Shown: positions 24,452-44,325, counted from the stretch's first letter. The stretch is 64,000 nt of DNA from an uncultured Sulfitobacter sp. (GCF_964021855.1 NZ_CAXHZD010000006.1:18213-82212), one strand, 5' to 3'. Notes: generated from the sequence alone by a model not told the origin. Numbers and translations are program-made.

Positions 24452-24582
24452 AATTTGGAGATCATCAAGCCTAAGATATTCAACCAAAATATTTTTTTAG
24501 ATGGGGAAATTGAATGCAGTTTTCTCTTACTTTTAAGTTACTATCGTTGGGATGACATGTCCTGACTTCTAGGAATTGCACT

Positions 24583-26427: not shown

Positions 26428-26431
26428 GCGC

Positions 26432-30569: not shown

Positions 30570-30580
30570 TGGAGACGATA

Positions 30581-31384
30581 ATGAAAACCCTTACACTGAC
30601 ATCCGCACTGGTGATCGCGCTTGGCAATTCGGCTGCCTTGGCCGGAGAATTTGACTGCCTGATGGACCCGTCTCTTGTGGTCGAGATCGGGAGCGCCGAG
30701 GCCGGGATCATCGAGAGCGTTTCGGTGCAAAGGGGGGATTTGGTCACCCAAGGGCAGCTTGTCGCAAAGTTGGAATCTGGGGCTGAACAGGTCGCCTTGG
30801 ATTACGCCCATGCGCGCGCAACCGACACGTCACCGCTGGAAATCGCGCAAAGCCGCATTGACCTGTTAGCCACCGAAGCACAGCGTGCCAAAGATCTGGG
30901 GGCCAAGAACCTAGTCCCGCAATCCATCGTCGATTCAGCCGTCAGCCAACATCAACAGGCGATCCTTGAACTGCGTCAGGCGGAATTTGAAAAACGGCTC
31001 GCTGCCTTGGATGAAACCCGCGTCGCCGCGCAACTGGCAAGACGTGACATTCATGCGCCCGTCGACGGGATTGTTATCACTCGCATGATTGGGCCCGGCG
31101 AATACGTATTTGCGCAAGCCCCGATTATCCAAATTGCCCGCATCGATCCGCTGCATATCGAGGTTTTTTTGCCCACTGAGCTTTTCAAAAACGTAAAGGT
31201 TGGCCAGATCGCCAAAGTCAAACCAGCAGCCCCCATCGGGGGAGAGTACGATGCCGAAGTGATTGTAATAGACCGCGTCTTTGACGCGGCAAGTGATACA
31301 TTTGGCGTGCGTCTGAGATTGGACAACCCCGAGGGAAAACTGGTTGCGGGCATTGATTGCAAAATCGAGATCGGCGGATTGTAA
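30581..31384 (+). CDS. Periplasmic membrane-fusion/adaptor protein (HlyD/RND-adaptor family) with a signal peptide
   Basis: The ATG at 30581 is preceded by GGAG with 6-nt spacing and yields MKTLTLTSALVIALGNSAALA. An alternative ATG at 30566 overlaps the SecA-like stop (ATGA). Lipoyl-like hairpins are AGIIESVSVQRGDLVTQGQLVAKLE and IHAPVDGIVITRMIGPGEYV, with a coiled coil between them. Confidence 0.85.
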   Translation: MKTLTLTSALVIALGNSAALAGEFDCLMDPSLVVEIGSAEAGIIESVSVQRGDLVTQGQLVAKLESGAEQVALDYAHARATDTSPLEIAQSRIDLLATEAQRAKDLGAKNLVPQSIVDSAVSQHQQAILELRQAEFEKRLAALDETRVAAQLARRDIHAPVDGIVITRMIGPGEYVFAQAPIIQIARIDPLHIEVFLPTELFKNVKVGQIAKVKPAAPIGGEYDAEVIVIDRVFDAASDTFGVRLRLDNPEGKLVAGIDCKIEIGGL

Positions 31385-31823: not shown

Positions 31824-32552
31824 TCAGCTATTATTACGCGAAAATATATTGCTTATATGAGCGTCGAATTCATTCCAGGTAATCACAGCGCGATTTCCAG
31901 CATTTCCATGATAATATGAGCGTCCGGTTGACGTCGGAAATCCTGCCCAGATGCGTGCGAGGTTTTCCATAAACTGGTGCCTGCTGATCTTACCTTTGAG
32001 GAAAGCACTAAATCCAGCGTCTTCAAGCAGGATATCCGCCAGGCGATCCTGAACCTGAGGTGTAAAGCGTGTATCGTGAGACAGGCCCAGCTCATGCACG
32101 AGGTTTCTCAATGTGAGGGGGATGAACTGGTATCGGCCAATTGCGTGCTGCTGGCGTGGTGTGTCATCAATCCATTGATAAATCTCACCTATCGTCATCT
32201 GGGTAGGTAATGCTGATGGTTTAACCTTTGCTCCGTATTGCACAGCATCATACCCATGGGGCCCTGCCTCAGCCAGGCCAATAAGACTTTTCAAATATGT
32301 AGCGGAGCTGGAGCCATCACTGTCAGGCGCTACAAATGAGCTTTCCTTCTTAGTGTTCTTGGCGGGAGTGACATTGAGATGAATACGGCTACTTGGCTGA
32401 TTAGGCAGGAATGAGAATTCTAAGTTACCACTGTTTATCAGGTCGCTCGTCGCGAAAGAAGCGGTGTCAGCTTGAACCGTCTCCCCGACCAATAAAGCAA
32501 AGAGTGGTAAGGCGATAATTGCTTCTCTAAAATTCATCTTTTTGGTCTCCAT
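31824..32552 (-). CDS. Secreted lysozyme-like enzyme resembling phage lambda R / GH104 lytic transglycosylase
   Basis: The signal peptide is MNFREAIIALPLFALLVGETVQA. The likely start is the ATG at 32537, with GGAG 9 nt upstream. Core motifs are LAEAGPHGYDAV...IGRYQFIP...FTPQVQDRLA...ARIWAGFP. From memory, lambda R has WSEG..GYDV..GRYQLL..FSPKSQD..IWASLP. Confidence 0.7.
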   Translation of the reverse strand: METKKMNFREAIIALPLFALLVGETVQADTASFATSDLINSGNLEFSFLPNQPSSRIHLNVTPAKNTKKESSFVAPDSDGSSSATYLKSLIGLAEAGPHGYDAVQYGAKVKPSALPTQMTIGEIYQWIDDTPRQQHAIGRYQFIPLTLRNLVHELGLSHDTRFTPQVQDRLADILLEDAGFSAFLKGKISRHQFMENLARIWAGFPTSTGRSYYHGNAGNRAVITWNEFDAHISNIFSRNNS

Positions 32553-32689: not shown

Positions 32690-32800
32690 CTATTCGATGT
32701 AGGGCGACGCCGTAGATACGCTTGCTGCGTGGCCCTTCTCGCTGACCTGTGCCACAGCGTCCTTTTTGAACTCATCCGTAAATCGAATTACCTTGTTCAT
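32690..32800 (-). pseudogene. Fragment of an IS3-family transposase OrfA (N-terminal HTH region), 36 codons then decay
   Basis: The reverse-strand translation is MNKVIRFTDEFKKDAVAQVSEKGHAASVSTASPYIE*, preceded by AAGGAG. RFTxEFKxxAVxxV is the typical opening of IS3-family OrfA proteins. I found no continuation or OrfB. Confidence 0.4.
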
Positions 32801-32893: not shown

Positions 32894-35800
32894 TTATGTG
32901 CCGAGAAACTGATCCAACTGGTCCCAAAGGGAGTTGTCGAGTAATAAGTTGAATCGGAAATAGAAACCTTCCTGATACAGGTCAGCTGACCGAGCGGTCT
33001 TTCCTTTGGCCTTGTTGTACCCGATGGCCAGCATGGTGCCCTTGGTTGGGACAAACCCAAATTCGGCACCCAGCCCGTTGGTCGTGTTGCCAGCATCATC
33101 CCAAAGGTGCGCCGCGTTTATGCCTATCTGAAAGCGGTCATCAGCGAACTCGTAGTTCACCCCGGCCTGCAGCAATTGTGTTGTTGAAGCAGCCGAATTG
33201 CTGTCGCCGACGTGGGCTTTTTGGTGCTGACCCGCATATTTGCCATTCAGGCGTAGATCGGAACCTGCTTCGTAAGCAGCATCGGCGGACCAAAGATGGC
33301 TTTCAGTTGTACTGTATTTCTCCTCGAGGCGGTGCTCATACCAGGCGAGAACTTCCAGTCGCGGGTCTGATAGCGGGCGGTATGCTCCACCAAGCCGAGT
33401 ACGCATTCGCCGTTGATTTTGTCCATTGCGTTGATCCAGTGCAATTCGGCTCCGACCTAGGACGGTAATTTCGGGTGTGATCTGACCGGCAAGGCCAAGG
33501 CTTGCATAATAGGTGTCGCCTGAGTTTTCGAACGTTGCATCGAAATCCGCATCGCCAACCCAGCCGCCATCGCCGGAGTCCCATTTCACCCCGACCGCGG
33601 TGCTTGTTAGCTCGCTCTCGTTGGTTTCCATCGAGCGCGAGTGTTCGATTCCAAGGCTAAGCGAAGTAGCTTTGTTCAGCTTGAAATCGGCGTCGACGGC
33701 TTGGGTCAGAACGGTATCTGTCTGCCACCCCCCATTGCTTAGTTCCGTCCGACCGCTAACCCATTCGTTCAGCGTGAAGGTAAAGCCATGCGTCGCGCGA
33801 GACATCACGTTTTTGTCGTCAAACCGCAGTTCGTACTCGCCATGGACACGCCAACCTGGCGCGGCTTCGCGGTACATGCCCAATGTTAGTTCTATTGGTG
33901 CATCGCCGGCACTCAATGGATGCCTAAGTTGCGCTTGTATCACGGTATTTGGGCGGTCTTTTGGCGTCCAATGTGTGCCAAGAACGAGTGACGTTTGGTT
34001 TTTGGAAGCACCCTGCAAACGGTCATAACGATACTCAAGCCCGATATCGCCACGCAGATATTTGCTAAGCTGCCGTGTGTATAGCGCTTCAACGGACACC
34101 CGATCAGTATTATTGATCCGGTCACGTACCAATTCGGCTCCGAGCTCGATATCGCTTAACCGGTCGATCTCGTACCCGTAGTTCAGCCGCGCCTGGGTTG
34201 TGCCAGAACGTGCCAGACTGCCGCGCGCCAGAAAGTTTGTTCCGGTGTGAACTGTCGTAAGACTTAGGCGCTGTCGTTCGGTTTGGATTTCGTATGATAG
34301 GCGGGCGGCACCGGCTATTTTGCCGTCAGGGTCTTCAGAACGTGCAACTTCCGCTTCCCAGATGGCACCGAACTTGTCTTCGTGACGAAGATAGCCAGAC
34401 TGCAACCGTTCACGGGATGGGTTTCCGGTTGGCGCATCGGCATGGACAGCACGTGCACCGATGGTGGTACGCTCGCCCAAAGCATAGTTCACTTCGCCAC
34501 CATATAGCCAATAGGTCTCGGACCCTGCCGTTTCCACCTCATATGTTACGCGGATCGAAACGAGATTGCCTTCCCGATCAAACTGACGGACGGGCGCGTT
34601 GAAAGTGATTGTATTGCGAAAAAAGTCGAGAATGTAATCCGTGCCGCGGCGCATAGAGGTTGAGGACAGAATATCGCCGCCCTGTTTGTCACGAACGAGT
34701 ATTTCGACTCGTTCAGTCCCCTGAACATAGCTGCCTAGTTCCAGATCATATGGGCCTGAAACACCACGCCCTCGTATTTCTTGCACCTTCTGCTCTTGCG
34801 CAGTGCGCGCGCCAAATACCGTGACAGATACCTTGTCGTTTTCCCAGTGGGCCTTGGCTCCTGTCGCTACGCGGCGCATGCCGTCCAGTTTCAGCGCACT
34901 TGCTTCGGGTTCAGTGGCGATATCACCGTAAAGAATATAGGATCTACCCTTCTCGACCTTTACGAAGAGGTTACCCGATGATTGTGCGTCTTGGCCGCGT
35001 TCGGAGCTATCGCCATACACTGGGTAGTATTCATCGCCACGAACGTCGCGGAACAAACGATCTTCGGTATCACGATCCGAGCGGTAGCGCAGGGTCAACA
35101 ATGCGTCTCCACGGATCGCACCTTTCAGATACATTTCGCCGCGCAGGCCCGTTGCTGTATCTTCAAACGAACTGAAGCGGTCTTTATCCAACAGCGTGCC
35201 GCTGTTTTGACCCAGCGATACTGCCCCTTCGATGACGCCGATTAGGACGCGTTCTTGAAGATCGGGAGTAAAGGTAACGGCGACTTCGGCGGTGCCAAAG
35301 CTGCCAGTCACAGTAATGAGGTCTTGCCCCGCAATCTGTGGGGGAATTATGCCGAAAGTCGCCTCGCCATTGTCGAGGTAGGCCTGAACACCGGGGGTGC
35401 CAGGGCGAATGTCGGTGACGTCCCAAAGAGCACGGCGGGCACTTAGTGTCACCGTACCTGAGGCAGGCACCGGTAATCCGCGGGCATCCAAAACACGCAC
35501 AACAACAGGCACAATGGAAGCCGGCGAAGCAGCGGCCTTTTCGGGCATGATGATCTCGAACTTTGAGGGCTTACCGGGGGCGATCAGCTTGATTTCTTTG
35601 CGCATTCGTTCAATGCCGAAACCGTCTTTACCGATCAGGGTCAGGGTGTTTTCGCCCGCGTTCAACTTGACAGCAGTGAATTCCATCGCCTGAACATTGG
35701 TCTCTTCCCACTTGGTACGCTCCCCGATCCGGTCCGAGCCTAGCGCGCGCCCGTTAAGCAATAATGCTAAGGTTAAGTCAGCTTTCCCTTTGACGCGAAT

Positions 35801-38632
35801 ACTCTGTGTGCTGCGGACTACTGTTTGCTCGTTCTCAAGGTCAACAAAACCTAGCGTCGAATCTAGCGTTTTGATCATCGCATCAAGAGTTTGGCGGCGC
35901 GCCGGCACTTTGGCCTTGGCCGCAATATCTTTTATAGCTTCGTCTTCGTCGATTAGCATCTGCGACGTTAGCTGTGTGGTCGTTGCAATCCCTTGCTCAC
36001 TACGGGATGACCGCACAGCTGCGCGTCGGCCACTCATAGGCAAATCGGCAGCTGTCAAAGAATTGGGCTGCTGTTTGGCCTCAAAATACGCCCGGCGCTT
36101 TGCAACCTCGGCCAAAGCATCCACTGTGCATTCTGCCAGAGCAAACTGTTCAGACCGCATCTCACCCTTGCGGAGCGGAACTAGGCGGGAACCGCGATGC
36201 TTCAAGTCGTTGGTGCGGGTCACGGTGACTTCAGTTCCGACCGGTAAAGTCTCTTCTTGAACAAGAAAAGCATGTGTTGCAGGACGCAACCCGTTGAGAG
36301 AGTATTTGCCATCAATATCAGTAACGACGGAAATACCTTCTTGGGTTACAATCCGCACACCCGGGACGCCAGGTTCAGAGGTGCCGCCGCGGATTCCGTC
36401 TGCGTTACAATCCATAAAGACAGACCCGATTACAGTGCCTTGACGGGAAAATACGCCACCGGAATTATCCAATCGTACCATAGTGCGTGCAACGGGTGAC
36501 TGACGCGGTGTACCTGTACCAGCTTGGCGGCCAGATAGAACTGCAGTGTTTTCATTCCGACCTTCACGCGCTGCGGCGGTGAATTGCATGACGTAAGTCA
36601 GTTCATGCGATGTAAGCGGCTCCAGAAGGCCAAGGTCAAACAACATATCACCATTTTGGTCAGTTTCAGGCTCCGCGATAGGCAAGCCGTTCATGAAAAC
36701 AGAACCAGCAACGAGAGTGACACCGAAGGGCGGATGATCGAGCAACTCCGTACCAACAAGACCTTGATGCATGTTGTTGGTAAAATTCAGCGTGTAGTTT
36801 ACGAATTCGCCAGTGTTAACGGTTTCGCGGTCGGCGGTCTTTAGCAAGGACAGCGGTGCCCCATAGTGAGGATCAACGGGTATGTCCGAAACGGACATCA
36901 TGCCCCCAGTATGGCTAAAAGAAGCGCCAAAGCCTGCCTGCATTACAGTTCGGCCCGTCCTGGAAAAGTCGGCACGGACCGAAGGAAATTCCCATGTTGG
37001 CGCATCGATAATTTCGTAGTGGTATTGTCCGGCTGACATATCTCCGAAGGTAAAGAAGCCACGCGGATCGGTATCGGTCATGGCTAGTTGACGACCCGAC
37101 GTCGCATCAACCAGCGCGATTGATATTCCTTCCACGGGTGCATTTGTTATCGAGTTGAACAGAAAGTTGCCCGGGTTGACCAGCAGGTCATCCTTAAGTC
37201 GATTGTCGCCACATTGAGCTGTCGCGGCTAGAGTGTCGCCGCGGTAGGAGGCTATGACGCCGTCGCCAGATGTAACAACATTCATGTCGGCGATCGGGAG
37301 CGCGGCAGTTTGAAATATCCCGGTGTTGGGGCCAGTTTCTGTGGCAGCAATCATTTCGACGTCGCCAGTTTGGACGCTGCGGATCGTGACCGTGGTATAA
37401 TCCACATCCGTTGATAAATTGCACTGACCCGAGGTCAGGCGCAGCCGTGTATCGCTGCCGAGAACACCAAACTCTTCATCTTCTCCAGATTGCGGATTTT
37501 CAAAGCGAAGCGCACCTGCGCCGGTATTAAGCCGGTCGAACACCGTCGTGTTCGAGTCAACAGCAGCGCTAAAACCATCAGCTTCGAGGAAAGCCGTGGC
37601 CGTGTTCACTACTTTGACGTCGCCTACAGCGGCTGGCAAACTAACCGAAAACGCTGGATCCGTAGCACGTCCGACAGGGTAATCCCCCTCAAGGAAAAAG
37701 CCGATGGCGTCGATCTCTTCGACCTGCTGTGGTTGGGTCGTTTGGTAAGTATGAACTGGTGTGCCAACCAGATGAAACATTGCTGTCATACCGCCGGTGT
37801 CCGTGATCGCGCGAAACACCGTATTGAGGGGGATCATGTCACGCACCAGAACGCCTGTACGGTCTGCGCCATCAATGTTCAAAACCTGGCCGGAAACTGT
37901 AGAATAGCTTGGTACGGGAAGCTCGGAATTATTGCGAACCCGCAGCGTGTAGTCGATGATCGTCGCCGTGTCAGTATCACGTAGCACTTGCGATTTTTCG
38001 ATCTCAAGCGAACCGCTGATAATTTTTGCTTCGCCTTGCCCTGCGGCTTCAATGCCCAGTGGCACGGCGGCATTGTCCTGTGTTGCGGCCGTCACTAACA
38101 ACATCGATTTCAATTGGTTGCCGGGTGTGGCGTTGGATGACACGCGGAACTCATAAATCAGTTGCATACGCTCGTCTGCGAGCAGCGAAATCGGGGCAGA
38201 AAGATCAAAGCGACGCTCTCGATCATCAATTAGTCCATCGGCGTTTAAATCCGCCATCAAAACACCGTCACCCATGAGCGAGGCACCAATTTGGTCTTCA
38301 GCTATCAACTGTGCATCTAGTGGGACGTTGCCGTTATTGTGAATTTCAAAGTAGTATTGTGCCAATGCGCCACGGGTTAAATACAAGTTGGAAAAGCCCG
38401 AGACTTCGATGCTTGGAATTGCAAGAACCGTAGCTTCGACAGGGTTTGAATAGACGGTTTCAACCATTCCAAGACTACTGTTGAAATACGACGTTTGCGC
38501 GATGTTCCGAATAAGGGTGCCACCGGGGGTCGGCGCTGCCATCGCGGTCTGAGAAAGAACAAGAAGGGCGACGAGCACAGTCTGGATAATAGTCACGGCA
38601 CGTGGGCCTGCTGTCTGAAGAAAACTGCGCAT
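32894..38632 (-). CDS. Very large outer-membrane/surface protein: signal peptide, DUF11-type and Cna-B/SdrD-B-like beta-sandwich domains, Ig-like domain, and a C-terminal ~700-750-aa predicted beta-barrel
   Basis: The ATG at 38632 has AAGGAG 7 nt upstream; the ORF track begins at the TTG at 38656. The signal peptide is AVTIIQTVLVALLVLSQTAMA. DUF11-like segments include LSLLKTADRETVNTGEFVNYTLNFTN. The SdrD-B-like segment is GSVFMDCNADGIRGGTSEPGVPGVRIVTQEGISVVTDIDGKYSL. The last ~750 aa show alternating-hydrophobic strands and end in ...LYQEGFYFRFNLLL. Confidence 0.9.
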   Translation of the reverse strand: MRSFLQTAGPRAVTIIQTVLVALLVLSQTAMAAPTPGGTLIRNIAQTSYFNSSLGMVETVYSNPVEATVLAIPSIEVSGFSNLYLTRGALAQYYFEIHNNGNVPLDAQLIAEDQIGASLMGDGVLMADLNADGLIDDRERRFDLSAPISLLADERMQLIYEFRVSSNATPGNQLKSMLLVTAATQDNAAVPLGIEAAGQGEAKIISGSLEIEKSQVLRDTDTATIIDYTLRVRNNSELPVPSYSTVSGQVLNIDGADRTGVLVRDMIPLNTVFRAITDTGGMTAMFHLVGTPVHTYQTTQPQQVEEIDAIGFFLEGDYPVGRATDPAFSVSLPAAVGDVKVVNTATAFLEADGFSAAVDSNTTVFDRLNTGAGALRFENPQSGEDEEFGVLGSDTRLRLTSGQCNLSTDVDYTTVTIRSVQTGDVEMIAATETGPNTGIFQTAALPIADMNVVTSGDGVIASYRGDTLAATAQCGDNRLKDDLLVNPGNFLFNSITNAPVEGISIALVDATSGRQLAMTDTDPRGFFTFGDMSAGQYHYEIIDAPTWEFPSVRADFSRTGRTVMQAGFGASFSHTGGMMSVSDIPVDPHYGAPLSLLKTADRETVNTGEFVNYTLNFTNNMHQGLVGTELLDHPPFGVTLVAGSVFMNGLPIAEPETDQNGDMLFDLGLLEPLTSHELTYVMQFTAAAREGRNENTAVLSGRQAGTGTPRQSPVARTMVRLDNSGGVFSRQGTVIGSVFMDCNADGIRGGTSEPGVPGVRIVTQEGISVVTDIDGKYSLNGLRPATHAFLVQEETLPVGTEVTVTRTNDLKHRGSRLVPLRKGEMRSEQFALAECTVDALAEVAKRRAYFEAKQQPNSLTAADLPMSGRRAAVRSSRSEQGIATTTQLTSQMLIDEDEAIKDIAAKAKVPARRQTLDAMIKTLDSTLGFVDLENEQTVVRSTQSIRVKGKADLTLALLLNGRALGSDRIGERTKWEETNVQAMEFTAVKLNAGENTLTLIGKDGFGIERMRKEIKLIAPGKPSKFEIIMPEKAAASPASIVPVVVRVLDARGLPVPASGTVTLSARRALWDVTDIRPGTPGVQAYLDNGEATFGIIPPQIAGQDLITVTGSFGTAEVAVTFTPDLQERVLIGVIEGAVSLGQNSGTLLDKDRFSSFEDTATGLRGEMYLKGAIRGDALLTLRYRSDRDTEDRLFRDVRGDEYYPVYGDSSERGQDAQSSGNLFVKVEKGRSYILYGDIATEPEASALKLDGMRRVATGAKAHWENDKVSVTVFGARTAQEQKVQEIRGRGVSGPYDLELGSYVQGTERVEILVRDKQGGDILSSTSMRRGTDYILDFFRNTITFNAPVRQFDREGNLVSIRVTYEVETAGSETYWLYGGEVNYALGERTTIGARAVHADAPTGNPSRERLQSGYLRHEDKFGAIWEAEVARSEDPDGKIAGAARLSYEIQTERQRLSLTTVHTGTNFLARGSLARSGTTQARLNYGYEIDRLSDIELGAELVRDRINNTDRVSVEALYTRQLSKYLRGDIGLEYRYDRLQGASKNQTSLVLGTHWTPKDRPNTVIQAQLRHPLSAGDAPIELTLGMYREAAPGWRVHGEYELRFDDKNVMSRATHGFTFTLNEWVSGRTELSNGGWQTDTVLTQAVDADFKLNKATSLSLGIEHSRSMETNESELTSTAVGVKWDSGDGGWVGDADFDATFENSGDTYYASLGLAGQITPEITVLGRSRIALDQRNGQNQRRMRTRLGGAYRPLSDPRLEVLAWYEHRLEEKYSTTESHLWSADAAYEAGSDLRLNGKYAGQHQKAHVGDSNSAASTTQLLQAGVNYEFADDRFQIGINAAHLWDDAGNTTNGLGAEFGFVPTKGTMLAIGYNKAKGKTARSADLYQEGFYFRFNLLLDNSLWDQLDQFLGT

Positions 38633-38722
38633 CAGTCGGCTCCTTTCAAAATTCAAGTTTGGGGATTGGCGGCTGATGGTGACCCCGGCCGAGGGACGGG
38701 AGCCGGGGCCACGAAAGCCTGC

Positions 38723-41362
38723 TTAGTTGTTCACCTGAACGGTGAACTCCAAGCGGGCAGACCCACCGGGGAGGATCGAGCCATGGGTGCTCGATACGTT
38801 GGACGGCGTAACCGTCGCGGTGCTGCCGGCAGGAAAGAGGCTCTCTGAACAAAGGCCACCACAGTTGATGACGGTGGTATAGGCTGGGGCAGCATCAGAG
38901 ATCGTCACGTTGGTTGCTGTCGAAGAACCGGTGTTTTCAGCTTCGACCATGTAGCGGATACACTGGCCAGGTTCGACTTCTTGACGAGTTTTGCTGAAGG
39001 TGCCGACGGTCCCATTACAATCTGCGTCAATGTACTGGTACTTGCTCAGTGTCATGTCGCCCGAAATGATTGTGATCCGGTCCTCAATTGCATTGTCGGC
39101 ACCGTCAGCATCGGTCTGGGTTCCATTGTTCAACGTTGTATCCAAGCTGAGGGTGCCAATTTCGGTCACGCCTGCGGTCGCAGTCGATGGGGTCTGCACG
39201 CGGTAAATCAGCGAGATGCTGTCGCCCGGAGCAAGCCCGTTTACGCCAGCCGAAACACCATCTGTCAGGTCGTCAAAGTTGTCGACAACTGGCTCTGAAG
39301 GGTCAATTACGCCGTTGCCGTTTTGATCCCAGAAAATTGCGCCTGAAAAGTTGGTCAGACCAGTTTCTGTGATTGCCCCTTCGGTAATGGCAACGTTGCC
39401 TTCGTTGGTGACCGTGTGGGTCAACTCTACAATGCCACCAGGTGCAGCCTGCGCGTTTTGATCATCAATGATCCTAACGTCGTAAATTTCGTTGACGGCC
39501 ACCTGATTGACGATACGGTCGCCCTGTCCTGAAACCGAGGAGACAAGTGCGATATCGACTAGCGTGTTACCTGGAAGCGCGTCCTCGGTAGGTGTCACGA
39601 TGACTTGGAAGGTTGTGCTATCACCCGCCGGAATGGTGCCGGTGTTGGTTGCCACGCTGCCGTCGGCCGCGCGGAATTGGACTGTCCAGCCTGCAGGAAG
39701 CGGCTGCGCCAGCGACAAGTTGAAGCTGTCGGAGACCGGACCTTCGTTTTGAACCAGCATATCGAAGGTGACGGGCTGACCCGGGTCGGTTGGTTCGGTA
39801 ATCCAAGCTGCACCGGCATTGGTCGGGGCCGCACCATCGCCTTCGACGCCAACTACTGCGTTTTCAAGATCGACCGAAGCTGCAAGAATAGCGCCTGTGA
39901 ACTCGGCAGTAGACACATCCGAGACGCCAGAGCCATCCGAAGTGGTGGTAATTGTCGCAGTATAGTTTGTGGTGGTCGTGGGTGTCAGAGCAGTTGGCAA
40001 GGTCGCAACTAGGATTACTTTTGCGCTGTCGCCGATGGCCAGCGGGCCAACAGAGCCAACAATTGGGGTTACACCATCAGCACCGACAAAGCGAAAGGTC
40101 GTACCATCAGGGAAGTCGACGTTATCGACCTGCAAAGATAAGCTGTCCGCTTTATTGGACCGGTTAGTCAGGACGAATTCTTGCTTGATCACGCCACCTT
40201 GATAGACATCGCCGGATTCGGTGACGACGTCGTCGTTTGCCGCATCATCGTCGGTTGCTGAAGCGATTGCGGTGTTTGGGGAACCGTCTGCGTTGATGGC
40301 CGTGTCGGCGATGGAAATAGCGTATTTGTTGTCAACAACGATGGAAGCAGTGTTCGACGGTGGGAAGGCAGTGCCATCTACCTCCTGCGAGGCCACGTTG
40401 GTAATAGTCCCAGCATTGGCTGTGTCAGCGACAACCGCTTGGAAGGTTACGCTGCCTGACCGGCCTGAACCGACCGATGACAAGTTGAAGTTTATTGTTT
40501 GGGCATCGTCGTAGTCCCAAGCGATGGTTTCGCCCGATCCATTTGTGCCATCAGTCAATGTCGAAGCGTTGTCGTCATCAAGCGGAGCAGTTGCGTCTGA
40601 CCAGCGTGCCGAACCCGGCACATAAGACAGATTGTTGTCCAAAACATCCTGTACCACATAGTTATTTGCGGCGGCGAGTCCGGTGCTCGAGTAAGTTAAT
40701 GTGATCGTGACAGTGTCACCAGCATCGACGATGTTTGGATTGCCGGCCGAAGCTGCGTCAGCAACCATCGATTTGACCAATTCCACAATGGCATCGTTCG
40801 ATATGGTCAGCGTGTCGGTGTTTGTGCTTAGCTCGGATCCGTCTAGCGCTGAAACCGCAGTAACGGTGATCGTGTCGGAACCAGCAGCATTTGATGGAAC
40901 GGAGGCTTCGATTACAACGCCAAACTGTTCGCCTGGTGCCAAGACTGGGGTTTCCGTCAAAGGTGTCGCGCTGTCGGCAACGCCATCCATGTTAGCATCC
41001 GGGTAAAAAACCAACTGTGAGGTATTCAGTGTACCAGAATCGTCCTCAACGGCAGTCAGCAAGAAATTATCTGAACCGTTGCCTTCGTTGGTGATGATGT
41101 GTGGCAGGAAGGCTTTGCCACCTGGTGCGATGGTCTCGGTGTTATCAGAGGTCAATGTGACACCAGCCACCTGCTGAACGATTGTTTCGACTGTGTTGGA
41201 GGTGACGGTGATCGTATCACCGGCCGAGTTTGTATAGGTTGCCACGGCTTGGTTGCCGATGACCGAACCTGCTTCGGGGGTTGCGCCGAAAGCACCGGAG
41301 CCGAGGACGGAGCATAAGGCCGCCGCACTTGCTGAGCGCATAAAACGAGAATGATAGGCCAC
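38723..41362 (-). CDS. Secreted DUF11 (conserved repeat domain) multi-repeat surface protein, 879 aa
   Basis: The GTG start has AAGGAA ~9 nt upstream. The signal peptide is SAAALCSVLGSGAFGA. There are multiple beta-sandwich repeats with DUF11-like signatures (GDTVTITLTYSSTG, GQCIRYMVEAENTGSSTATNVTISDAAPAYT). The gene lies 66 nt upstream of the next gene. Confidence 0.9.
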   Translation of the reverse strand: MAYHSRFMRSASAAALCSVLGSGAFGATPEAGSVIGNQAVATYTNSAGDTITVTSNTVETIVQQVAGVTLTSDNTETIAPGGKAFLPHIITNEGNGSDNFLLTAVEDDSGTLNTSQLVFYPDANMDGVADSATPLTETPVLAPGEQFGVVIEASVPSNAAGSDTITVTAVSALDGSELSTNTDTLTISNDAIVELVKSMVADAASAGNPNIVDAGDTVTITLTYSSTGLAAANNYVVQDVLDNNLSYVPGSARWSDATAPLDDDNASTLTDGTNGSGETIAWDYDDAQTINFNLSSVGSGRSGSVTFQAVVADTANAGTITNVASQEVDGTAFPPSNTASIVVDNKYAISIADTAINADGSPNTAIASATDDDAANDDVVTESGDVYQGGVIKQEFVLTNRSNKADSLSLQVDNVDFPDGTTFRFVGADGVTPIVGSVGPLAIGDSAKVILVATLPTALTPTTTTNYTATITTTSDGSGVSDVSTAEFTGAILAASVDLENAVVGVEGDGAAPTNAGAAWITEPTDPGQPVTFDMLVQNEGPVSDSFNLSLAQPLPAGWTVQFRAADGSVATNTGTIPAGDSTTFQVIVTPTEDALPGNTLVDIALVSSVSGQGDRIVNQVAVNEIYDVRIIDDQNAQAAPGGIVELTHTVTNEGNVAITEGAITETGLTNFSGAIFWDQNGNGVIDPSEPVVDNFDDLTDGVSAGVNGLAPGDSISLIYRVQTPSTATAGVTEIGTLSLDTTLNNGTQTDADGADNAIEDRITIISGDMTLSKYQYIDADCNGTVGTFSKTRQEVEPGQCIRYMVEAENTGSSTATNVTISDAAPAYTTVINCGGLCSESLFPAGSTATVTPSNVSSTHGSILPGGSARLEFTVQVNN

Positions 41363-41415
41363 TTTTAAAGTTCCTTGATATGATTGATGTAAGAGTAAGG
41401 GGTAGGGGTGACTGA

Positions 41416-41928
41416 TCAGTCGACCCGGACGCGGTAGGTGTTAAGGGCAGTTTCACCGGCCTTTAACGGTTCTGAGAATGTCCAGCGAACCGAGGCGATC
41501 TCAGTTTCGGGCAGGGGCTCTTTGTCCAGGGTGCCATCAGCGTTAGCGACCAAACGCATCGCGGGCAGTGTGGACCACTCAAGACCTTCTTGCTCTGGAT
41601 CGAGTTCAGCTTGGACTTCGAATACCGCTGCGATCGAGGCGGTTTCGCCGCCCAGCGTGAGCGACACGCCCTCGGGCACAGGAGCCGCGATCACGATGCC
41701 TGCCATTGCGTCGGCAGAAGTATTTTCGTGCCGCAGCTGGTATTGGATAATTTCACCCGGCCGGACACTGGTGCGCTCGACAAGTTTTTGCTGACCGTCG
41801 TCGTTCGTTTCAACTACGAGGAAGGAGAAGCTACTAGATAGGGCTTCTGCGGCGGCTGGAAGAACCATCATCGACAGGGCCATTCCGGTGACGATCGCTC
41901 TTGGTATATTGGGGAGATAAATATGCAT
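41416..41928 (-). CDS. Small secreted single-domain DUF11-like protein (170 aa)
   Basis: The signal-like segment is MALSMMVLPAAAEA, with an alternative start at 41883. It contains PGEIIQYQLRHENTSADAMAGIVIAAPVPEGVSL. It lies 53 nt upstream of the 879-aa gene on the same strand. Confidence 0.7.
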   Translation of the reverse strand: MHIYLPNIPRAIVTGMALSMMVLPAAAEALSSSFSFLVVETNDDGQQKLVERTSVRPGEIIQYQLRHENTSADAMAGIVIAAPVPEGVSLTLGGETASIAAVFEVQAELDPEQEGLEWSTLPAMRLVANADGTLDKEPLPETEIASVRWTFSEPLKAGETALNTYRVRVD

Positions 41929-42476: not shown

Positions 42477-43091
42477 TCAGATAAATCCGGCGCTTCGAGC
42501 AATCATTGCGGCATCCGTGCGGTTTCTTGCATCCAGTTTTTTGCACAATGTCTTAACATGCAATTTGATGGTCACTTCTTGAAGGTCTAGCTCACGGGCA
42601 ATTTCCTTATTGGATCTTGCGTTCATCAAACCTCGTAGAACTTGCCTTTCACGTTCCGAAAGCGCTTTTTCAAAATCGGTCTCTTCAGGGTCGTCCTTGC
42701 CTGACATGAAATTAACCGGCGCGTAGATTTCTCCGGCAACCATGAAACGTACAGCATTGACCAATGATTTCGCCGGAAGCGTCTTCGGCAGGAAACCAAT
42801 CGCTCCCATAGCTAGCGCCTGCTCGGCGATCAGACGTGTCGCTGTGCCGGAAATAAGCCCGACAGGTTTTCCGTCATTAGCATCCAGCACCGTCTGTAGA
42901 CCGTCCAGCCCGTTCATTCCGGGCATGGTGTAGTCAAGTAGAACGAGATCAAACGGGCCTTCTGATTTAACTTTTGCAAGGGCTTCTTGCAGATTTGATG
43001 CGGCGGTTGTTTCAGACGTGCCATCTGCATCAAGAAACATGGCGATAGTCTCACGAACCATGTCGTGATCATCGGCGATCAGAATTTTCAT
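42477..43091 (-). CDS. NarL/FixJ-family response regulator (REC + LuxR-type HTH)
   Basis: REC motifs are MKILIADDHDMV, DLVLLDYTMPGMNG and FLPKT. The HTH reads LSERERQVLRGLMNARSNKEIARELDLQEVTIKLHVKTLCKKLDARNRTDA. Confidence 0.9.
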   Translation of the reverse strand: MKILIADDHDMVRETIAMFLDADGTSETTAASNLQEALAKVKSEGPFDLVLLDYTMPGMNGLDGLQTVLDANDGKPVGLISGTATRLIAEQALAMGAIGFLPKTLPAKSLVNAVRFMVAGEIYAPVNFMSGKDDPEETDFEKALSERERQVLRGLMNARSNKEIARELDLQEVTIKLHVKTLCKKLDARNRTDAAMIARSAGFI

Positions 43092-43731: not shown

Positions 43732-44013
43732 GGCCACTTCCAGCAGCTGGCCTTCGGCCCTGATAAACGGCGCACTCTGCAGATTAGCTGCACTCCTTGC
43801 CCTGCGGCGCACGTATGGGAACTATGCTTCAGGATAGTCAAATTATACACAAGTACGGGCGCGCGCTTGTTCAGGGTAAGCTATCATTAATGCACGCCCT
43901 CCGCGACTGAGTGTCAGACGCAAGAGAACGGAACATACCGACCTAGCGCTACGGCCACGGGTCAAAGCGCCGATTGAAAGGGTCTCGTGAGACTTGAGAC
44001 CTGTCTTTATCTT

Positions 44014-44056
44014 GCAACCTGACATGCCGCTCCCCATGCCCCCCAGGGGGGCGGCA
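44014..44056 (+). terminator. Candidate Rho-independent terminator in an otherwise gene-free stretch
   Basis: ATGCCGCTCCCC (44014-44025) pairs with GGGGGGCGGCAT (44036-47). That gives 12 bp with one G-U pair and a ~10-nt loop, followed by TTTCTTTTG. Confidence 0.5.
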
Positions 44057-44325
44057 TTTTCTTTTGTAAAAATACTCTTGTCGTATTCGCCTCCGCTGGG
44101 GGTCCGACATCGGCGAATGATCGATCCCACGCAAATTCTTGAATTTTCTACCCCAAAGCATAGCCAGCTATGCGCCTTGGTATGGGAGTTGGCCGTCTGA
44201 TCCTTAGCCTTAAACCCTGCAAGCTGCGACATAGGGCAACATAAGAGGATCATGGCAAAATTTCGTAGCGGGGGCCTCATGCGCGAGCCCTAAGTTCGCC
44301 GAATGCCGTGATCCGCAAGTACTGA

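What the first reader, a model, noticed from the sequence alone, without database searches (positions are those of the whole stretch)
32894..41928. Three-gene DUF11 operon ending in a ~1,912-aa protein with an unusually large C-terminal beta-barrel: possible self-contained surface-fibre assembly system
Seen in the sequence: three same-strand genes have 53-nt and 66-nt spacers. They encode a 170-aa single-domain DUF11-like protein, an 879-aa multi-DUF11 protein, and a giant protein with DUF11, Cna-B/SdrD-B-like and Ig-like domains. The giant protein's last ~750 residues are amphipathic beta-strands (for example RLSLTTVHTG, ARLNYGYEI, IGLEYRYD, LVLGTHWTP, ADFKLNKATSLSLGIEH, FQIGINAAHLW, GAEFGFVP, FYFRFNLLL). 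All three have signal peptides. Established knowledge: classical autotransporter barrels span about 250-300 aa, and only ushers, LptD and similar proteins approach this size. Inference: the barrel may act as an anchor or usher-like pore for the co-encoded DUF11 proteins. I cannot name a described system that matches.
Basis: partly seen in the sequence, partly recalled or inferred. Interest (0 to 1): 0.65.

Follow-up and report, generated by a model that had tools for sequence, protein, structure and literature searches.

The report
Barrel-anchored split-domain surface fibre operon
A gene cluster found in many Gram-negative bacteria, and described in none of the papers I could search, appears to build a cell-surface fibre whose proteins join by completing each other's unfinished domains, rooted in an unusually large outer-membrane barrel.

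Summary
Three same-strand genes encode secreted proteins of 170, 879 and 1,912 aa. AlphaFold2 models the giant's last ~790 aa as a large outer-membrane beta-barrel module (pLDDT 84). No Pfam model or PDB sequence matches it.

The trio is conserved in order in 25/25 Rhodobacteraceae genomes, in named beta- and gamma-proteobacteria, and in 29/31 diverse metagenomic loci. The barrel module has 2,257 sequence clusters.

New finding: the 879-aa protein and the giant each start, right after the signal peptide, with an orphan beta-hairpin (GTxIxNxA...SNxVxxxV). This matches the last two strands of a complete DUF11/CLIPPER domain. The 170-aa, 879-aa and a nearby 1,957-aa GEVED adhesin each end in a DUF11 domain that lacks exactly that hairpin.

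This gives donor-only (giant), donor+acceptor (879) and acceptor-only (170, adhesin) classes. It implies head-to-tail trans-complementation, possibly locked by a Lys-Asn isopeptide bond: Lys774, Asp823 and Asn37 are invariant.

A conserved stem-loop after the 879 gene fits subunits being made in excess of the anchor.

Export through the barrel, surface location and covalent bonding are inferred, not shown. I found no description in the literature.

The parts
42477..43091 (-). NarL/FixJ-type response regulator (204 aa) just upstream. Likely regulator of the cluster.
   Evidence: Response_reg and GerE domains. Found upstream of the trio in most Rhodobacteraceae loci (19 in the same position and strand, 1 elsewhere).
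41416..41928 (-). Small protein (170 aa): signal peptide plus a single truncated DUF11-like 'acceptor' domain. It has no donor hairpin, no conserved Lys and no catalytic Asp. Proposed reversible cap or hairpin chaperone.
   Evidence: Weak DUF11/TIGR01451 hits. hhalign to the giant's DUF11 domain gives 88% probability. Homologues sit in the same position in Photobacterium (E 6e-15), Psychrobacter (E 9e-10) and Xylophilus (E 2e-9). The Lys position holds S/T/A/D and the Asp position holds Ala or varies. Present upstream in 29/31 diverse loci.
38723..41362 (-). Medium protein (879 aa): signal peptide, donor hairpin, about 7 beta-sandwich domains and a C-terminal acceptor domain. Proposed extender (shaft) subunit.
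   Evidence: DUF11 and NPCBM_assoc domains. 70-87% identical across Rhodobacteraceae genera, with length 868-884 aa. Homologues in beta- and gamma-proteobacteria.
41159..41284 (-). Donor hairpin of the 879-aa protein (residues 27-68, ATPEAGSVIGNQAVATYTNSAGDTITVTSNTVETIVQQV).
   Evidence: Holds the most conserved 20-aa window of the protein, residues 47-66 (0.95 column identity). Homologous to the giant's N-terminal hairpin (hhalign 97.6%, E 4e-12). Asn37 and Asn56 are invariant in 27/27 sequences.
38726..39067 (-). C-terminal acceptor domain of the 879-aa protein (residues 766-879). It is a DUF11 domain that stops just before the terminal hairpin.
   Evidence: The Pfam DUF11 match covers positions 10-85 of 114 and the protein ends there. 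hhalign to the giant's complete internal DUF11 domain covers positions 10-95 of 135 and stops where that domain's hairpin begins. Lys774 and Asp823 are invariant in 27/27 sequences.
38679..38712 (-). 12-bp GC-rich stem-loop directly after the 879 gene's stop codon. Proposed intra-operon attenuator or mRNA stabiliser.
   Evidence: -33.2 kcal/mol, z -2.26. All 27 Rhodobacteraceae loci have a 10-15 bp GC-rich stem-loop at this position with different sequences, and many are followed by a U-run.
32894..38632 (-). Giant protein (1,912 aa from ATG 38632). Proposed basal anchor of the fibre and its candidate pore.
   Evidence: ORF and Shine-Dalgarno. About 47 homologues at 42-74% identity, mostly full-length (1,904-1,927 aa), plus distant ones.
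38411..38536 (-). Donor hairpin of the giant (residues 33-74, APTPGGTLIRNIAQTSYFNSSLGMVETVYSNPVEATVLAIPS).
   Evidence: The motif follows the signal peptide in distant homologues too. The strict motif occurs in 66/130 family representatives, against 17/1,851 background windows. By eye it is present in 30/31 diverse loci. Asn43 is N in 25 and S in 3 sequences; Asn63 is invariant in 28/28.
36173..38410 (-). Stalk of beta-sandwich domains (residues 75-820): DUF7925-like, CarboxypepD_reg-like, DUF11 and SdrD_B.
   Evidence: Pfam. This is the least conserved part of the protein, at 0.34-0.7 column identity over most of it and rising in the C-terminal SdrD_B part.
35828..36172 (-). Linker of about 115 aa (residues 821-935). 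Not modelled.
   Evidence: No domain hit. Partly conserved motif DLP...RS.R..AG.ATTTQL in the family consensus.
35258..35827 (-). Two Ig-like beta-sandwich domains immediately before the barrel module (residues 936-1125).
   Evidence: AlphaFold2 model, pLDDT 84-92. No Pfam hit.
34565..35257 (-). Most conserved module of the family (residues 1126-1356): about 7 strands, a long invariant loop and an inserted small beta-sandwich (residues ~1280-1356). Candidate plug or latch.
   Evidence: The highest density of invariant columns in the 67-sequence alignment lies here. The consensus LFRDIQPDxFYPVYGDSS...SGPY...VEIITRDR is kept at 39-53% identity across 20 diverse representatives. No Pfam hit.
35000..35059 (-). 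Invariant loop RLFRDVRGDEYYPVYGDSSE (residues 1192-1211). Function unknown.
   Evidence: 0.97 column identity, the highest in the protein. AlphaFold2 could not place it (pLDDT below 50).
32897..34564 (-). 32 consecutive amphipathic antiparallel beta-strands with short turns, then a short C-terminal helix (residues 1357-1912). This is the main barrel wall.
   Evidence: AlphaFold2 secondary structure, pLDDT mostly 84-95. Foldseek matches only large outer-membrane barrels, TM 0.14-0.28. 2,257 clusters of homologues, almost all with the module at the C-terminus of 1,600-3,000-aa proteins.
31824..32552 (-). Secreted lysozyme / lytic-transglycosylase-like protein (242 aa) downstream of the giant. 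Lineage-specific accessory.
   Evidence: PHROG endolysin family E 4.5e-20. Conserved about 250 bp downstream of the giant in about 20 Rhodobacteraceae loci. Absent from the gamma-proteobacterial loci.
44326..50199 (+). 1,957-aa GEVED/DUF11/SdrD_B protein with a signal peptide and no donor hairpin. Proposed tip adhesin.
   Evidence: Pfam. Sequence. Homologues lie within 10 kb of the trio in five other genomes. An acceptor-ended large ORF lies just downstream of the giant in 21/31 diverse loci.
49852..50196 (+). C-terminal acceptor-type truncated DUF11 domain of the 1,957-aa protein (LKLTKTV...IYDRTPPYT...SAFVTFQVKIAP-stop).
   Evidence: Sequence. The same ending is seen in the Photobacterium 2,808-aa GEVED protein and the Psychrobacter 563-aa protein.

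Best explanation
The cluster encodes a modular cell-surface fibre (a pilus-like fibrillar adhesin) rooted in the outer membrane by the giant protein.

Proposed steps:
1. All components are exported by Sec. This rests on signal peptides seen by inspection.
2. The giant's last ~790 aa insert into the outer membrane as a very large beta-barrel module: at least 32 wall strands plus a conserved N-terminal module with an inserted beta-sandwich. This is predicted by AlphaFold2.
3. The giant's N-terminal stalk ends in a free two-strand 'donor' hairpin.
4. The 879-aa protein ends in a DUF11/CLIPPER domain that lacks exactly this hairpin (an 'acceptor') and starts with its own donor hairpin. It can therefore dock onto the giant and onto further copies of itself, head to tail.
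5. Acceptor-only proteins end the chain. The 1,957-aa GEVED protein would be the adhesive tip. The 170-aa protein lacks the catalytic residues, so it would act as a reversible cap or as a periplasmic chaperone for donor hairpins.
6. The acceptor keeps the invariant Lys and Asp of the CLIPPER isopeptide triad, and the donor hairpin supplies the Asn. The joint may therefore lock covalently, like a natural SpyTag/SpyCatcher pair.
7. The conserved stem-loop after the 879 gene would keep subunit expression above anchor expression.
8. The wide barrel is the likeliest route by which the stalk and subunits reach the surface.

What is shown: gene content, co-conservation, the terminal donor/acceptor pattern, residue invariance, and the predicted barrel.

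What is inferred: trans-complementation itself, the covalent bond, surface location, passage through the barrel, and the role of the 170-aa protein.
For: 1. Co-conservation. The small-medium-giant order is kept in 25/25 Rhodobacteraceae loci with enough flank. It is also kept in Psychrobacter and Photobacterium, in Xylophilus, in 29/31 diverse metagenomic loci and in 18/18 close ones.

2. Terminal modules. 80 of 98 acceptor-HMM hits end within 15 aa of an ORF's C-terminus, none end 16-100 aa from it, and the other 18 are internal. 84 of 90 hairpin-HMM hits start within the first 130 aa.

3. The acceptor is a truncated domain. The Pfam DUF11 match stops at position 85 of 114, at the protein's end. 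hhalign to a complete internal domain stops where that domain's hairpin begins.

4. The N-terminal hairpin matches the terminal hairpin of complete domains. Its best hhalign hits for both proteins fall on the terminal hairpin of the giant's internal DUF7925 domain (E 0.0045 and 0.022). In 18 complete internal domains, many of the 50-aa segments that follow the acceptor-like part show the same pG.I.N.A...SN.V motif. The N-hairpin HMM scores those segments far above random windows: median 5.2 against -0.2 bits, Mann-Whitney p 5e-8.

5. Three classes only were seen: donor-only giants, donor+acceptor mediums, and acceptor-only small and tip proteins. The two giants without a hairpin (L112 and the Gemmatimonadota one) also lack partner genes.

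6. Residue pattern. Lys774, Asp823, Asn37 and Asn56 are invariant, whereas the small protein lacks the Lys and the Asp. The CLIPPER crystal structure has a Lys-Asn bond catalysed by Asp (PMC12617251).

7. Fusion model. AlphaFold2 on a direct fusion of the 879 acceptor and the mature giant hairpin gave pLDDT 85 overall, with the hairpin region in strands at pLDDT 62-87. The model matches CLIPPER 9IFR at rmsd 3.6 A over 113 columns.

8. Barrel.

9. Conserved stem-loop after the 879 gene.
Against: - No experiment and no multimer model supports the idea. I could not inspect coordinates, so hairpin docking and Lys-Asn geometry in the fusion model are unverified. Parts of the hairpin reach only pLDDT 62-71.
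- Scoring acceptor+hairpin chimeras against Pfam DUF11 did not beat a reversed-hairpin control.
- hhalign support for hairpin homology is weak taken alone.
- 3 of 28 giants have Ser in place of the donor Asn, so a covalent lock cannot be universal.
- The cluster holds no energy source, no chaperone-usher homologue and no known translocon signature. How folded subunits would cross the membrane is unknown.
- The 879-aa protein is more conserved than the giant's stalk. That is unusual for an exposed fibre subunit.
- The association with peptidoglycan-binding or -cleaving proteins would also fit a periplasmic structure.
Confidence: 0.5

Rival explanations
1. The giant is a self-sufficient, autotransporter-like adhesin with its own C-terminal barrel and N-terminal passenger. 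The 170- and 879-aa proteins are cargo or accessory proteins that do not polymerise. On this reading the conserved N-terminal hairpin is an export or targeting signal recognised by the barrel, comparable to the TPS domain in two-partner secretion or the C-terminal signal of type 9 cargo.
For: The architecture is a signal peptide, repeat passenger, linker and C-terminal barrel. The hairpin sits directly after the signal peptide and is the most conserved part of the 879-aa protein. No direct evidence of polymerisation exists, and the chimera HMM test was inconclusive.
Against: A targeting signal does not explain why three different proteins end in a domain truncated at exactly the hairpin. It does not explain why the putative cargo proteins p170 and the GEVED protein lack the 'signal'. 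It does not explain why the hairpin motif recurs after complete internal domains. The barrel has no autotransporter, Omp85/TpsB or SprA signature.
Confidence: 0.2
2. The structure is not a surface fibre. It is an envelope scaffold: the barrel sits in the outer membrane, while the stalk and its partners stay in the periplasm and tie the outer membrane to peptidoglycan or span the periplasm.
For: Peptidoglycan-related partners recur: a secreted lysozyme-like protein in Rhodobacteraceae, OmpA-like lipoproteins after the giant in Photobacterium and Gemmatimonadota, and OmpA domains in distant homologues of the giant, with an OmpA-like C-terminal extension in Xylophilus (read by eye) and an 'OmpA family protein' label in Burkholderia. 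Barrel termini are normally periplasmic (established knowledge). The 879-aa protein is highly conserved.
Against: The acceptor-ended partner carries GEVED-type domains and resembles the GEVED/CLIPPER fibrillar adhesin described in PMC12617251. CLIPPER domains are reported in extracellular stalks. The giant's stalk is its most variable part, as expected for an exposed region. A chain of 879-aa subunits would be far longer than the periplasm is wide (inference).
Confidence: 0.1
3. The giant is mainly a large-pore channel or a surface-layer anchor, like Deinococcus SlpA. The 879-aa protein would form a coat or lattice rather than a linear fibre.
For: The highest query-normalised fold score is to trimeric SlpA (TM 0.23). 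The barrel is very large with short loops. The stem-loop suggests the 879-aa protein is made in excess.
Against: All fold matches are weak and generic. There is no SLH or S-layer domain. The one-donor/one-acceptor logic predicts linear chains, not lattices.
Confidence: 0.08

Closest known systems
Chaperone-usher pili (Fim/Pap type)
   Same: An outer-membrane barrel with a small beta-sandwich inserted early in the barrel sequence. Subunits with an incomplete Ig-like fold completed in trans by an N-terminal extension of the neighbour. A separate tip adhesin and chain-ending subunits. A stem-loop after the major subunit gene (this last point for pap/fim is from my own knowledge).
   Different: No Usher (PF00577) or PapD-like chaperone signature, and no usher among the top 50 fold matches. 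The donor is a two-strand hairpin that carries an Asn. The acceptor is the last domain of a multi-domain subunit. The barrel is larger and fused to its own stalk. The joint may be covalent.
Type V secretion (classical autotransporters, intimin/invasin)
   Same: One polypeptide combines an outer-membrane barrel with a long passenger made of beta-sandwich repeats, and it is Sec-dependent.
   Different: The barrel module is ~790 aa with at least 32 strands, against 12 strands in ~250-300 aa. There is no PF03797 hit. Dedicated partner subunits are co-encoded.
Isopeptide-bonded CnaA/CnaB domains: Gram-positive sortase pili, CLIPPER fibrillar adhesins (PMC12617251), SpyTag/SpyCatcher
   Same: The same domain superfamily (DUF11 = CLIPPER, CnaA-like) with a Lys-Asn isopeptide catalysed by an acidic residue. 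The engineered SpyTag/SpyCatcher pair shows that a split domain of this kind can ligate spontaneously (own knowledge).
   Different: Here the split would be natural and between different proteins. There is no sortase and no LPXTG motif. The anchor is an outer-membrane barrel rather than peptidoglycan. The known CLIPPER bonds are intramolecular.
Archaeal thread filaments (PMC9715654; bioRxiv 10.1101/2022.04.26.489512)
   Same: Their titles and abstracts report fibres held by donor-strand complementation together with isopeptide bonds.
   Different: They are archaeal, have no outer membrane or barrel anchor, and use single-domain subunits. I tested no sequence relationship.
Very large outer-membrane barrels: SprA (type 9 translocon), LptD, MtrB, SlpA
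   Same: These are the only structural neighbours of the C-terminal module (Foldseek probability 0.95-1.0). SprA and MtrB are examples of barrels that pass or enclose folded proteins (own knowledge).
   Different: TM-scores are only 0.09-0.28 with 6-9% identity. No shared Pfam family. None of them is fused to a repeat stalk with a donor hairpin.

Membership tests
Outer-membrane beta-barrel proteins | N-terminal Sec signal peptide | tested here: met
   By inspection of MRSFLQTAGPRAVTIIQTVLVALLVLSQTAMA|AP. No signal-peptide predictor was available.
Outer-membrane beta-barrel proteins | Long run of amphipathic antiparallel strands with short turns, closing into a barrel | tested here: inconclusive
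   32 consecutive strands plus about 7 earlier ones at high pLDDT. Fold matches are only to outer-membrane barrels.
Outer-membrane beta-barrel proteins | C-terminal beta-signal strand ending in an aromatic residue | tested here: inconclusive
   The last strand is GFYFRFNLLL, followed by a 14-aa helical tail. Distant homologues end ...LRLRFKFDE(T/D)LF. This is signal-like but not terminal.
Classical autotransporter (type Va) | 12-strand C-terminal barrel, Pfam PF03797, ~250-300 aa | tested here: not met
   No PF03797 hit. The module is ~790 aa with at least 32 strands.
Chaperone-usher pathway | Usher protein (PF00577 and its N-, plug and C-domains) | tested here: not met
   No hit even at E <= 10 on sub-segments. 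No usher among the top 50 Foldseek matches.
Chaperone-usher pathway | PapD-like periplasmic chaperone gene in the operon | tested here: not met
   None among the cluster genes or their neighbours. The 170-aa protein is a single DUF11-like domain.
Chaperone-usher pathway | Subunits with an incomplete fold completed by a neighbour's N-terminal extension | tested here: inconclusive
   An analogous split is supported at sequence level and is compatible with the fusion model. It has not been shown structurally or experimentally.
DUF11 / CLIPPER (PF01345) domain proteins | Match above the Pfam gathering score | tested here: met
   879-aa protein 47.8 bits, giant 28.6 bits, 1,957-aa protein 83.9 bits, against a cutoff of 24.6. 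Not met for the 170-aa protein (16.7 bits).
DUF11 / CLIPPER (PF01345) domain proteins | Lys-Asp-Asn isopeptide triad within one domain | tested here: not met
   Not met for the terminal domains. The C-terminal domain of the 879-aa protein has Lys774 and Asp823 but stops before the Asn strand, and the Asn lies in the N-terminal hairpins. Internal domains show the three motifs in cis by sequence.
Type 9 secretion (SprA translocon with CTD cargo) | SprA family barrel; Por_Secre_tail C-terminal signal on cargo | tested here: not met
   No such Pfam or NCBIfam hits. SprA fold match TM 0.09-0.20.
Two-partner secretion / Omp85 | POTRA domains plus a 16-strand Omp85 barrel; TPS domain on cargo | tested here: not met
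   No Pfam hits.
Sortase-assembled pili | LPXTG sorting signal and a sortase gene | tested here: not met
   The proteins end 1-3 residues after the last strand with no LPXTG or hydrophobic tail. No sortase among the neighbours scanned.
Lysozyme-like lytic enzymes (lambda R / GH104-like), for the 242-aa downstream gene | Sequence match to the family including the catalytic Glu region | tested here: inconclusive
   PHROG endolysin family E 4.5e-20. No Pfam or PDB sequence hit. The catalytic Glu was aligned only by eye.

The most novel reading that the evidence does not exclude
This is a previously unrecognised and widespread class of Gram-negative surface fibre. Its subunits polymerise by trans-complementation of a naturally split CnaA/CLIPPER domain and are locked by spontaneous intermolecular Lys-Asn isopeptide bonds, a natural SpyTag/SpyCatcher. 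A dedicated barrel of more than 30 strands, fused to the basal subunit, exports and anchors the fibre. That would amount to a new pilus assembly and secretion pathway with no chaperone, usher, sortase or ATPase.
Probability: 0.35. Interest if true: 0.92.

Novelty: new variant of a known kind. Interest (0 to 1): 0.8.

Why it matters
If the model holds, Gram-negative bacteria have a fibre-assembly route that combines three principles so far seen separately:
- donor-strand complementation, as in chaperone-usher and type V pili;
- spontaneous isopeptide locking, as in Gram-positive pilins;
- self-anchoring by a C-terminal barrel, as in autotransporters.

It would do so without any of their machinery.

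The barrel module alone defines a family of 2,257 clusters at 50% identity with no Pfam model, no solved relative and no published function. It is found in marine Roseobacter-group bacteria, Photobacterium damselae, Burkholderia, Colwellia, Psychrobacter and many soil and freshwater metagenomes.

The work would:
- give a testable answer to how CLIPPER/GEVED fibrillar adhesins of Gram-negative bacteria are attached to the cell;
- add one of the largest single-chain barrels to the outer-membrane repertoire;
- perhaps provide natural orthogonal protein-ligation pairs for biotechnology.

The key residues (Lys774, Asp823, Asn37/Asn43) make the idea directly testable.

Tried and rejected
1. Chimera scoring against Pfam DUF11. 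Adding either hairpin to the acceptor extended the match, but a reversed-hairpin control did the same (36-41 against 39.6 bits). Inconclusive.

2. hhalign of the hairpins against the giant's DUF11 domain found no significant alignment. Against the rest of both proteins the best hits were the expected terminal hairpin, but only weakly (E 0.0045 and 0.022). I replaced this test with the HMM enrichment test.

3. Natural read-through construct. The 879 gene and the giant are in the same frame with a single stop between them, but the tools refuse sequences containing stops. I used a direct fusion instead.

4. PDB sequence searches of the giant and of the 242-aa protein found nothing useful.

5. Foldseek on both models gave only generic matches.

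6. Pfam scans of barrel sub-segments at E <= 10 gave only a weak DUF2490 hit.

7. The consensus promoter/terminator scan gave counts no higher than shuffled sequence.

8. Five literature searches found no description of such a system.

9. I considered that representative P0260 (2,129 aa) might be the Acinetobacter adhesin of the CLIPPER paper, which has the same length. Rejected: it lacks the residues and CTTC motif described there.

10. The context look-up for the Burkholderia homologue failed; it is not on record.

11. Lys791 was considered as the acceptor Lys, because its spacing to the Asp resembles CLIPPER. Rejected: it is absent from the Photobacterium and Xylophilus proteins and from the tip proteins, whereas Lys774 is invariant.

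12. The 145-aa ORF at 43843..44280 was considered as a component. Rejected: it is not conserved in related loci.

Full report
**1. The observation**

The minus strand carries three consecutive ORFs at 41928..41416 (170 aa), 41362..38723 (879 aa, GTG start) and 38656..32894. The last ORF is listed from a TTG. However, ATG 38632 has an AAGGAG Shine-Dalgarno 7 nt upstream and gives the 1,912-aa product that every homologue shares. The spacers are therefore 53 and 90 nt.

Pfam and NCBIfam support DUF11/TIGR01451 in the 879-aa protein and the giant. The giant also has SdrD_B and sub-threshold DUF7925 and CarboxypepD_reg hits. The 170-aa protein is only weakly DUF11-like: 16.7 bits, below the cutoff, and 88% probability by hhalign. 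All three N-termini look like Sec signal peptides by inspection. Nothing in Pfam, NCBIfam or the PDB sequence set matches the last ~790 residues.

**2. The C-terminal region**

AlphaFold2 on residues 931-1912 with 67 homologues gave mean pLDDT 83.9 and pTM 0.75. The secondary structure reads as follows:
- two Ig-like sandwiches (residues ~940-1122);
- about seven strands;
- a long loop that could not be placed;
- a small inserted beta-sandwich (~1280-1356);
- 32 consecutive amphipathic antiparallel strands with short turns, then a short helix.

Foldseek against the PDB returned only large outer-membrane barrels: LptD, MtrB, SlpA, SprA, TonB-dependent receptors and VDAC. Probabilities were 0.95-1.0, but TM-scores were 0.09-0.42 (at most 0.28 for the large barrels) and identity was 6-13%. 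So this is an outer-membrane barrel fold with no specific relative. I had no access to coordinates, so strand number and closure remain unverified.

The best-conserved part of the whole protein is not the barrel wall. It is the module at its start (residues ~1160-1360), including the loop RLFRDVRGDEYYPVYGDSSE at 0.97 column identity.

**3. Distribution and synteny**

The giant has about 47 homologues at 42-74% identity, mostly full-length, in Rhodobacteraceae. Relatives at 24-29% identity occur in Psychrobacter, Xylophilus, Photobacterium damselae and Gemmatimonadota. All are unnamed or called 'DUF11 domain-containing'.

A full HMMER pass over 1.84 billion representatives found 2,257 clusters for the barrel module at E <= 1e-3, of which 572 reach E <= 1e-30. 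Almost all are 1,600-3,000-aa proteins with the module at the C-terminus. Named examples come from Colwellia, Agitococcus, Burkholderia and Parvularculaceae.

Gene order is conserved:
- In 29 Rhodobacteraceae genomes, all 25 loci with enough flank have the order small, medium, giant. Most also have the response regulator upstream and the 242-aa gene downstream.
- The small-medium-giant order recurs in Psychrobacter (154/679/1,773 aa), Photobacterium (200/1,087/2,196 aa) and Xylophilus (224/951/2,502 aa). The small and medium proteins there are detectably homologous to those in the window.
- In 80 metagenomic loci fetched with the conserved module, 29 of 31 diverse loci (module identity below 60%) with at least 4 kb upstream carry both partners on the same strand. 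So do 18 of 18 close ones.

**4. The new anatomy: a split domain**

The 879-aa protein and the giant both begin, right after the signal peptide, with a hairpin of the form (P)AGTxIxNxAxAxY...SNxVxxxV. The two hairpins are homologous (hhalign 97.6%, E 4e-12). This segment is the most conserved part of the 879-aa protein. It is present in distant giants too.

Conversely, the 879-aa protein ends in a DUF11 domain whose Pfam match stops at profile position 85 of 114. Its alignment to the giant's complete internal DUF11 domain stops exactly where that domain's terminal hairpin begins. Three other proteins end the same way:
- the 170-aa protein;
- the 1,957-aa GEVED protein at 44326..50199;
- the Photobacterium GEVED protein and the Psychrobacter 563-aa protein.

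Across the metagenomic loci, 80 of 98 acceptor-HMM hits end within 15 aa of a C-terminus, and 84 of 90 hairpin-HMM hits start within 130 aa of an ORF start.

Where an acceptor-like domain is internal, the next ~45 residues often carry the same hairpin motif in cis. The N-terminal-hairpin HMM scores those segments far above random windows from the same proteins (p 5e-8).

The proteins therefore fall into three classes:
- donor-only: the giant;
- donor plus acceptor: the medium protein;
- acceptor-only: the small and tip proteins.

The two giants that lack a hairpin (L112 and the Gemmatimonadota one) also lack partner genes. That is only two cases.

**5. A possible covalent lock**

DUF11 was renamed CLIPPER after a crystal structure showed a Lys-Asn isopeptide bond catalysed by an Asp (PMC12617251). 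In the 879-aa family the acceptor's Lys774 and Asp823 and the hairpin's Asn37 and Asn56 are invariant in 27/27 sequences. In giants the donor Asn43 is N in 25 and S in 3 of 28. The small protein has neither the Lys nor the Asp.

A direct fusion of the 879 acceptor to the mature giant N-terminus reproduces the spacing seen in internal domains. AlphaFold2 gave it pLDDT 85.2, with the hairpin region in strands at pLDDT 62-87. Foldseek found CLIPPER 9IFR at rmsd 3.6 A over 113 columns. This is compatible with complementation but does not prove it.

**6. Other features**

A 12-bp GC-rich stem-loop follows the stop codon of the 879 gene. All 27 Rhodobacteraceae loci have such a stem-loop with different sequences, and many are followed by a U-run. 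This suggests attenuation that keeps the subunits in excess of the anchor.

The 242-aa downstream gene encodes a secreted lysozyme-like protein. Other lineages instead have an OmpA-like lipoprotein, or an OmpA domain fused to the giant.

**7. Interpretation**

The best-supported reading is a barrel-anchored modular fibre:
- the giant is the base and the candidate pore;
- the 879-aa protein is the extender;
- the GEVED protein is the tip;
- the 170-aa protein is a reversible cap or hairpin chaperone.

Trans-complementation, covalent locking, surface exposure and passage through the barrel are all inferences.

The rivals are an autotransporter-like adhesin in which the hairpin is a targeting signal, a periplasmic scaffold, and a channel or S-layer anchor. 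I consider them less likely, mainly because they do not explain the reciprocal truncation pattern.

Membership tests for autotransporters, chaperone-usher systems, type 9 secretion, two-partner secretion and sortase pili all fail.

**8. Novelty**

Five literature searches found nothing that describes this system. I rate it a new variant of a known kind, namely strand-complemented surface fibres and barrel-anchored adhesins. If the mechanism is confirmed it would deserve a class of its own.

Noticed in passing
window 35..31384 (+): An 8,138-aa ORF with RTX calcium-binding repeats (35..24451) is followed by four genes: a HlyD-family protein with a GAF domain (24583..26427), a 716-aa protein with weak HlyD_3/Peptidase_M50 hits (26432..28582), a SecA-like ATPase of 664 aa (28575..30569; SecA_DEAD E 1e-104) and a 272-aa HlyD-like protein (30566..31384). 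This looks like an export gene set built around a SecA paralogue instead of the usual type 1 ABC transporter.
   Followed up: partly
window 32690..32800 (-): A 36-codon ORF between the giant and the lysozyme-like gene matches the first 26 positions of the HTH_Tnp_1 transposase domain (E 0.0011, below the cutoff). It is probably a remnant of an insertion sequence.
   Followed up: partly
window 35000..35059 (-), giant residues 1192-1211: The most conserved stretch of the giant, RLFRDVRGDEYYPVYGDSSE, has its FYPVYGD core nearly invariant across the family. It lies in a loop that AlphaFold2 could not place (pLDDT below 50). Its role is unknown: a latch, a partner-binding site or a catalytic site.
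   Followed up: partly
window 31824..32552 (-); L031 16609..17130; L033 18646..19557; L032 giant C-terminus: The gene after the giant is peptidoglycan-related, but differently in each lineage. It is a secreted lysozyme-like protein in Rhodobacteraceae and an OmpA-like lipoprotein in Photobacterium and Gemmatimonadota. In Xylophilus (by eye) and Burkholderia (by its source label) the giant itself appears to end in an OmpA-like domain.
   Followed up: partly
window 38679..38712 (-) and the equivalent spacers of L001-L029: The stem-loop after the 879 gene is conserved in structure but not in sequence across 27 genomes, and is often followed by a U-run. I did not check whether the diverse metagenomic loci have it too.
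   Followed up: partly
window 38723..38656 (-): The 879 gene and the giant ORF are in the same reading frame, with a single TAA between them. This is probably a coincidence. I did not examine whether stop-codon read-through could make a fusion protein.
   Followed up: no
window 43843..44280 (-): A 145-aa ORF with no Pfam hit lies between the response regulator and the GEVED protein. It has a weak BLASTP match (E 3.5e-5) to the 265-aa protein encoded after the Psychrobacter giant, but no counterpart in the 29 Rhodobacteraceae loci.
   Followed up: partly
L058-L110, downstream of the giants: In 21 of 31 diverse metagenomic loci, a large ORF of 860-2,560 aa with an acceptor-type C-terminus and no donor hairpin lies immediately after the giant. 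The commonest gene order elsewhere is therefore small, medium, giant, tip. In this window the tip-like gene is divergent and upstream.
   Followed up: yes
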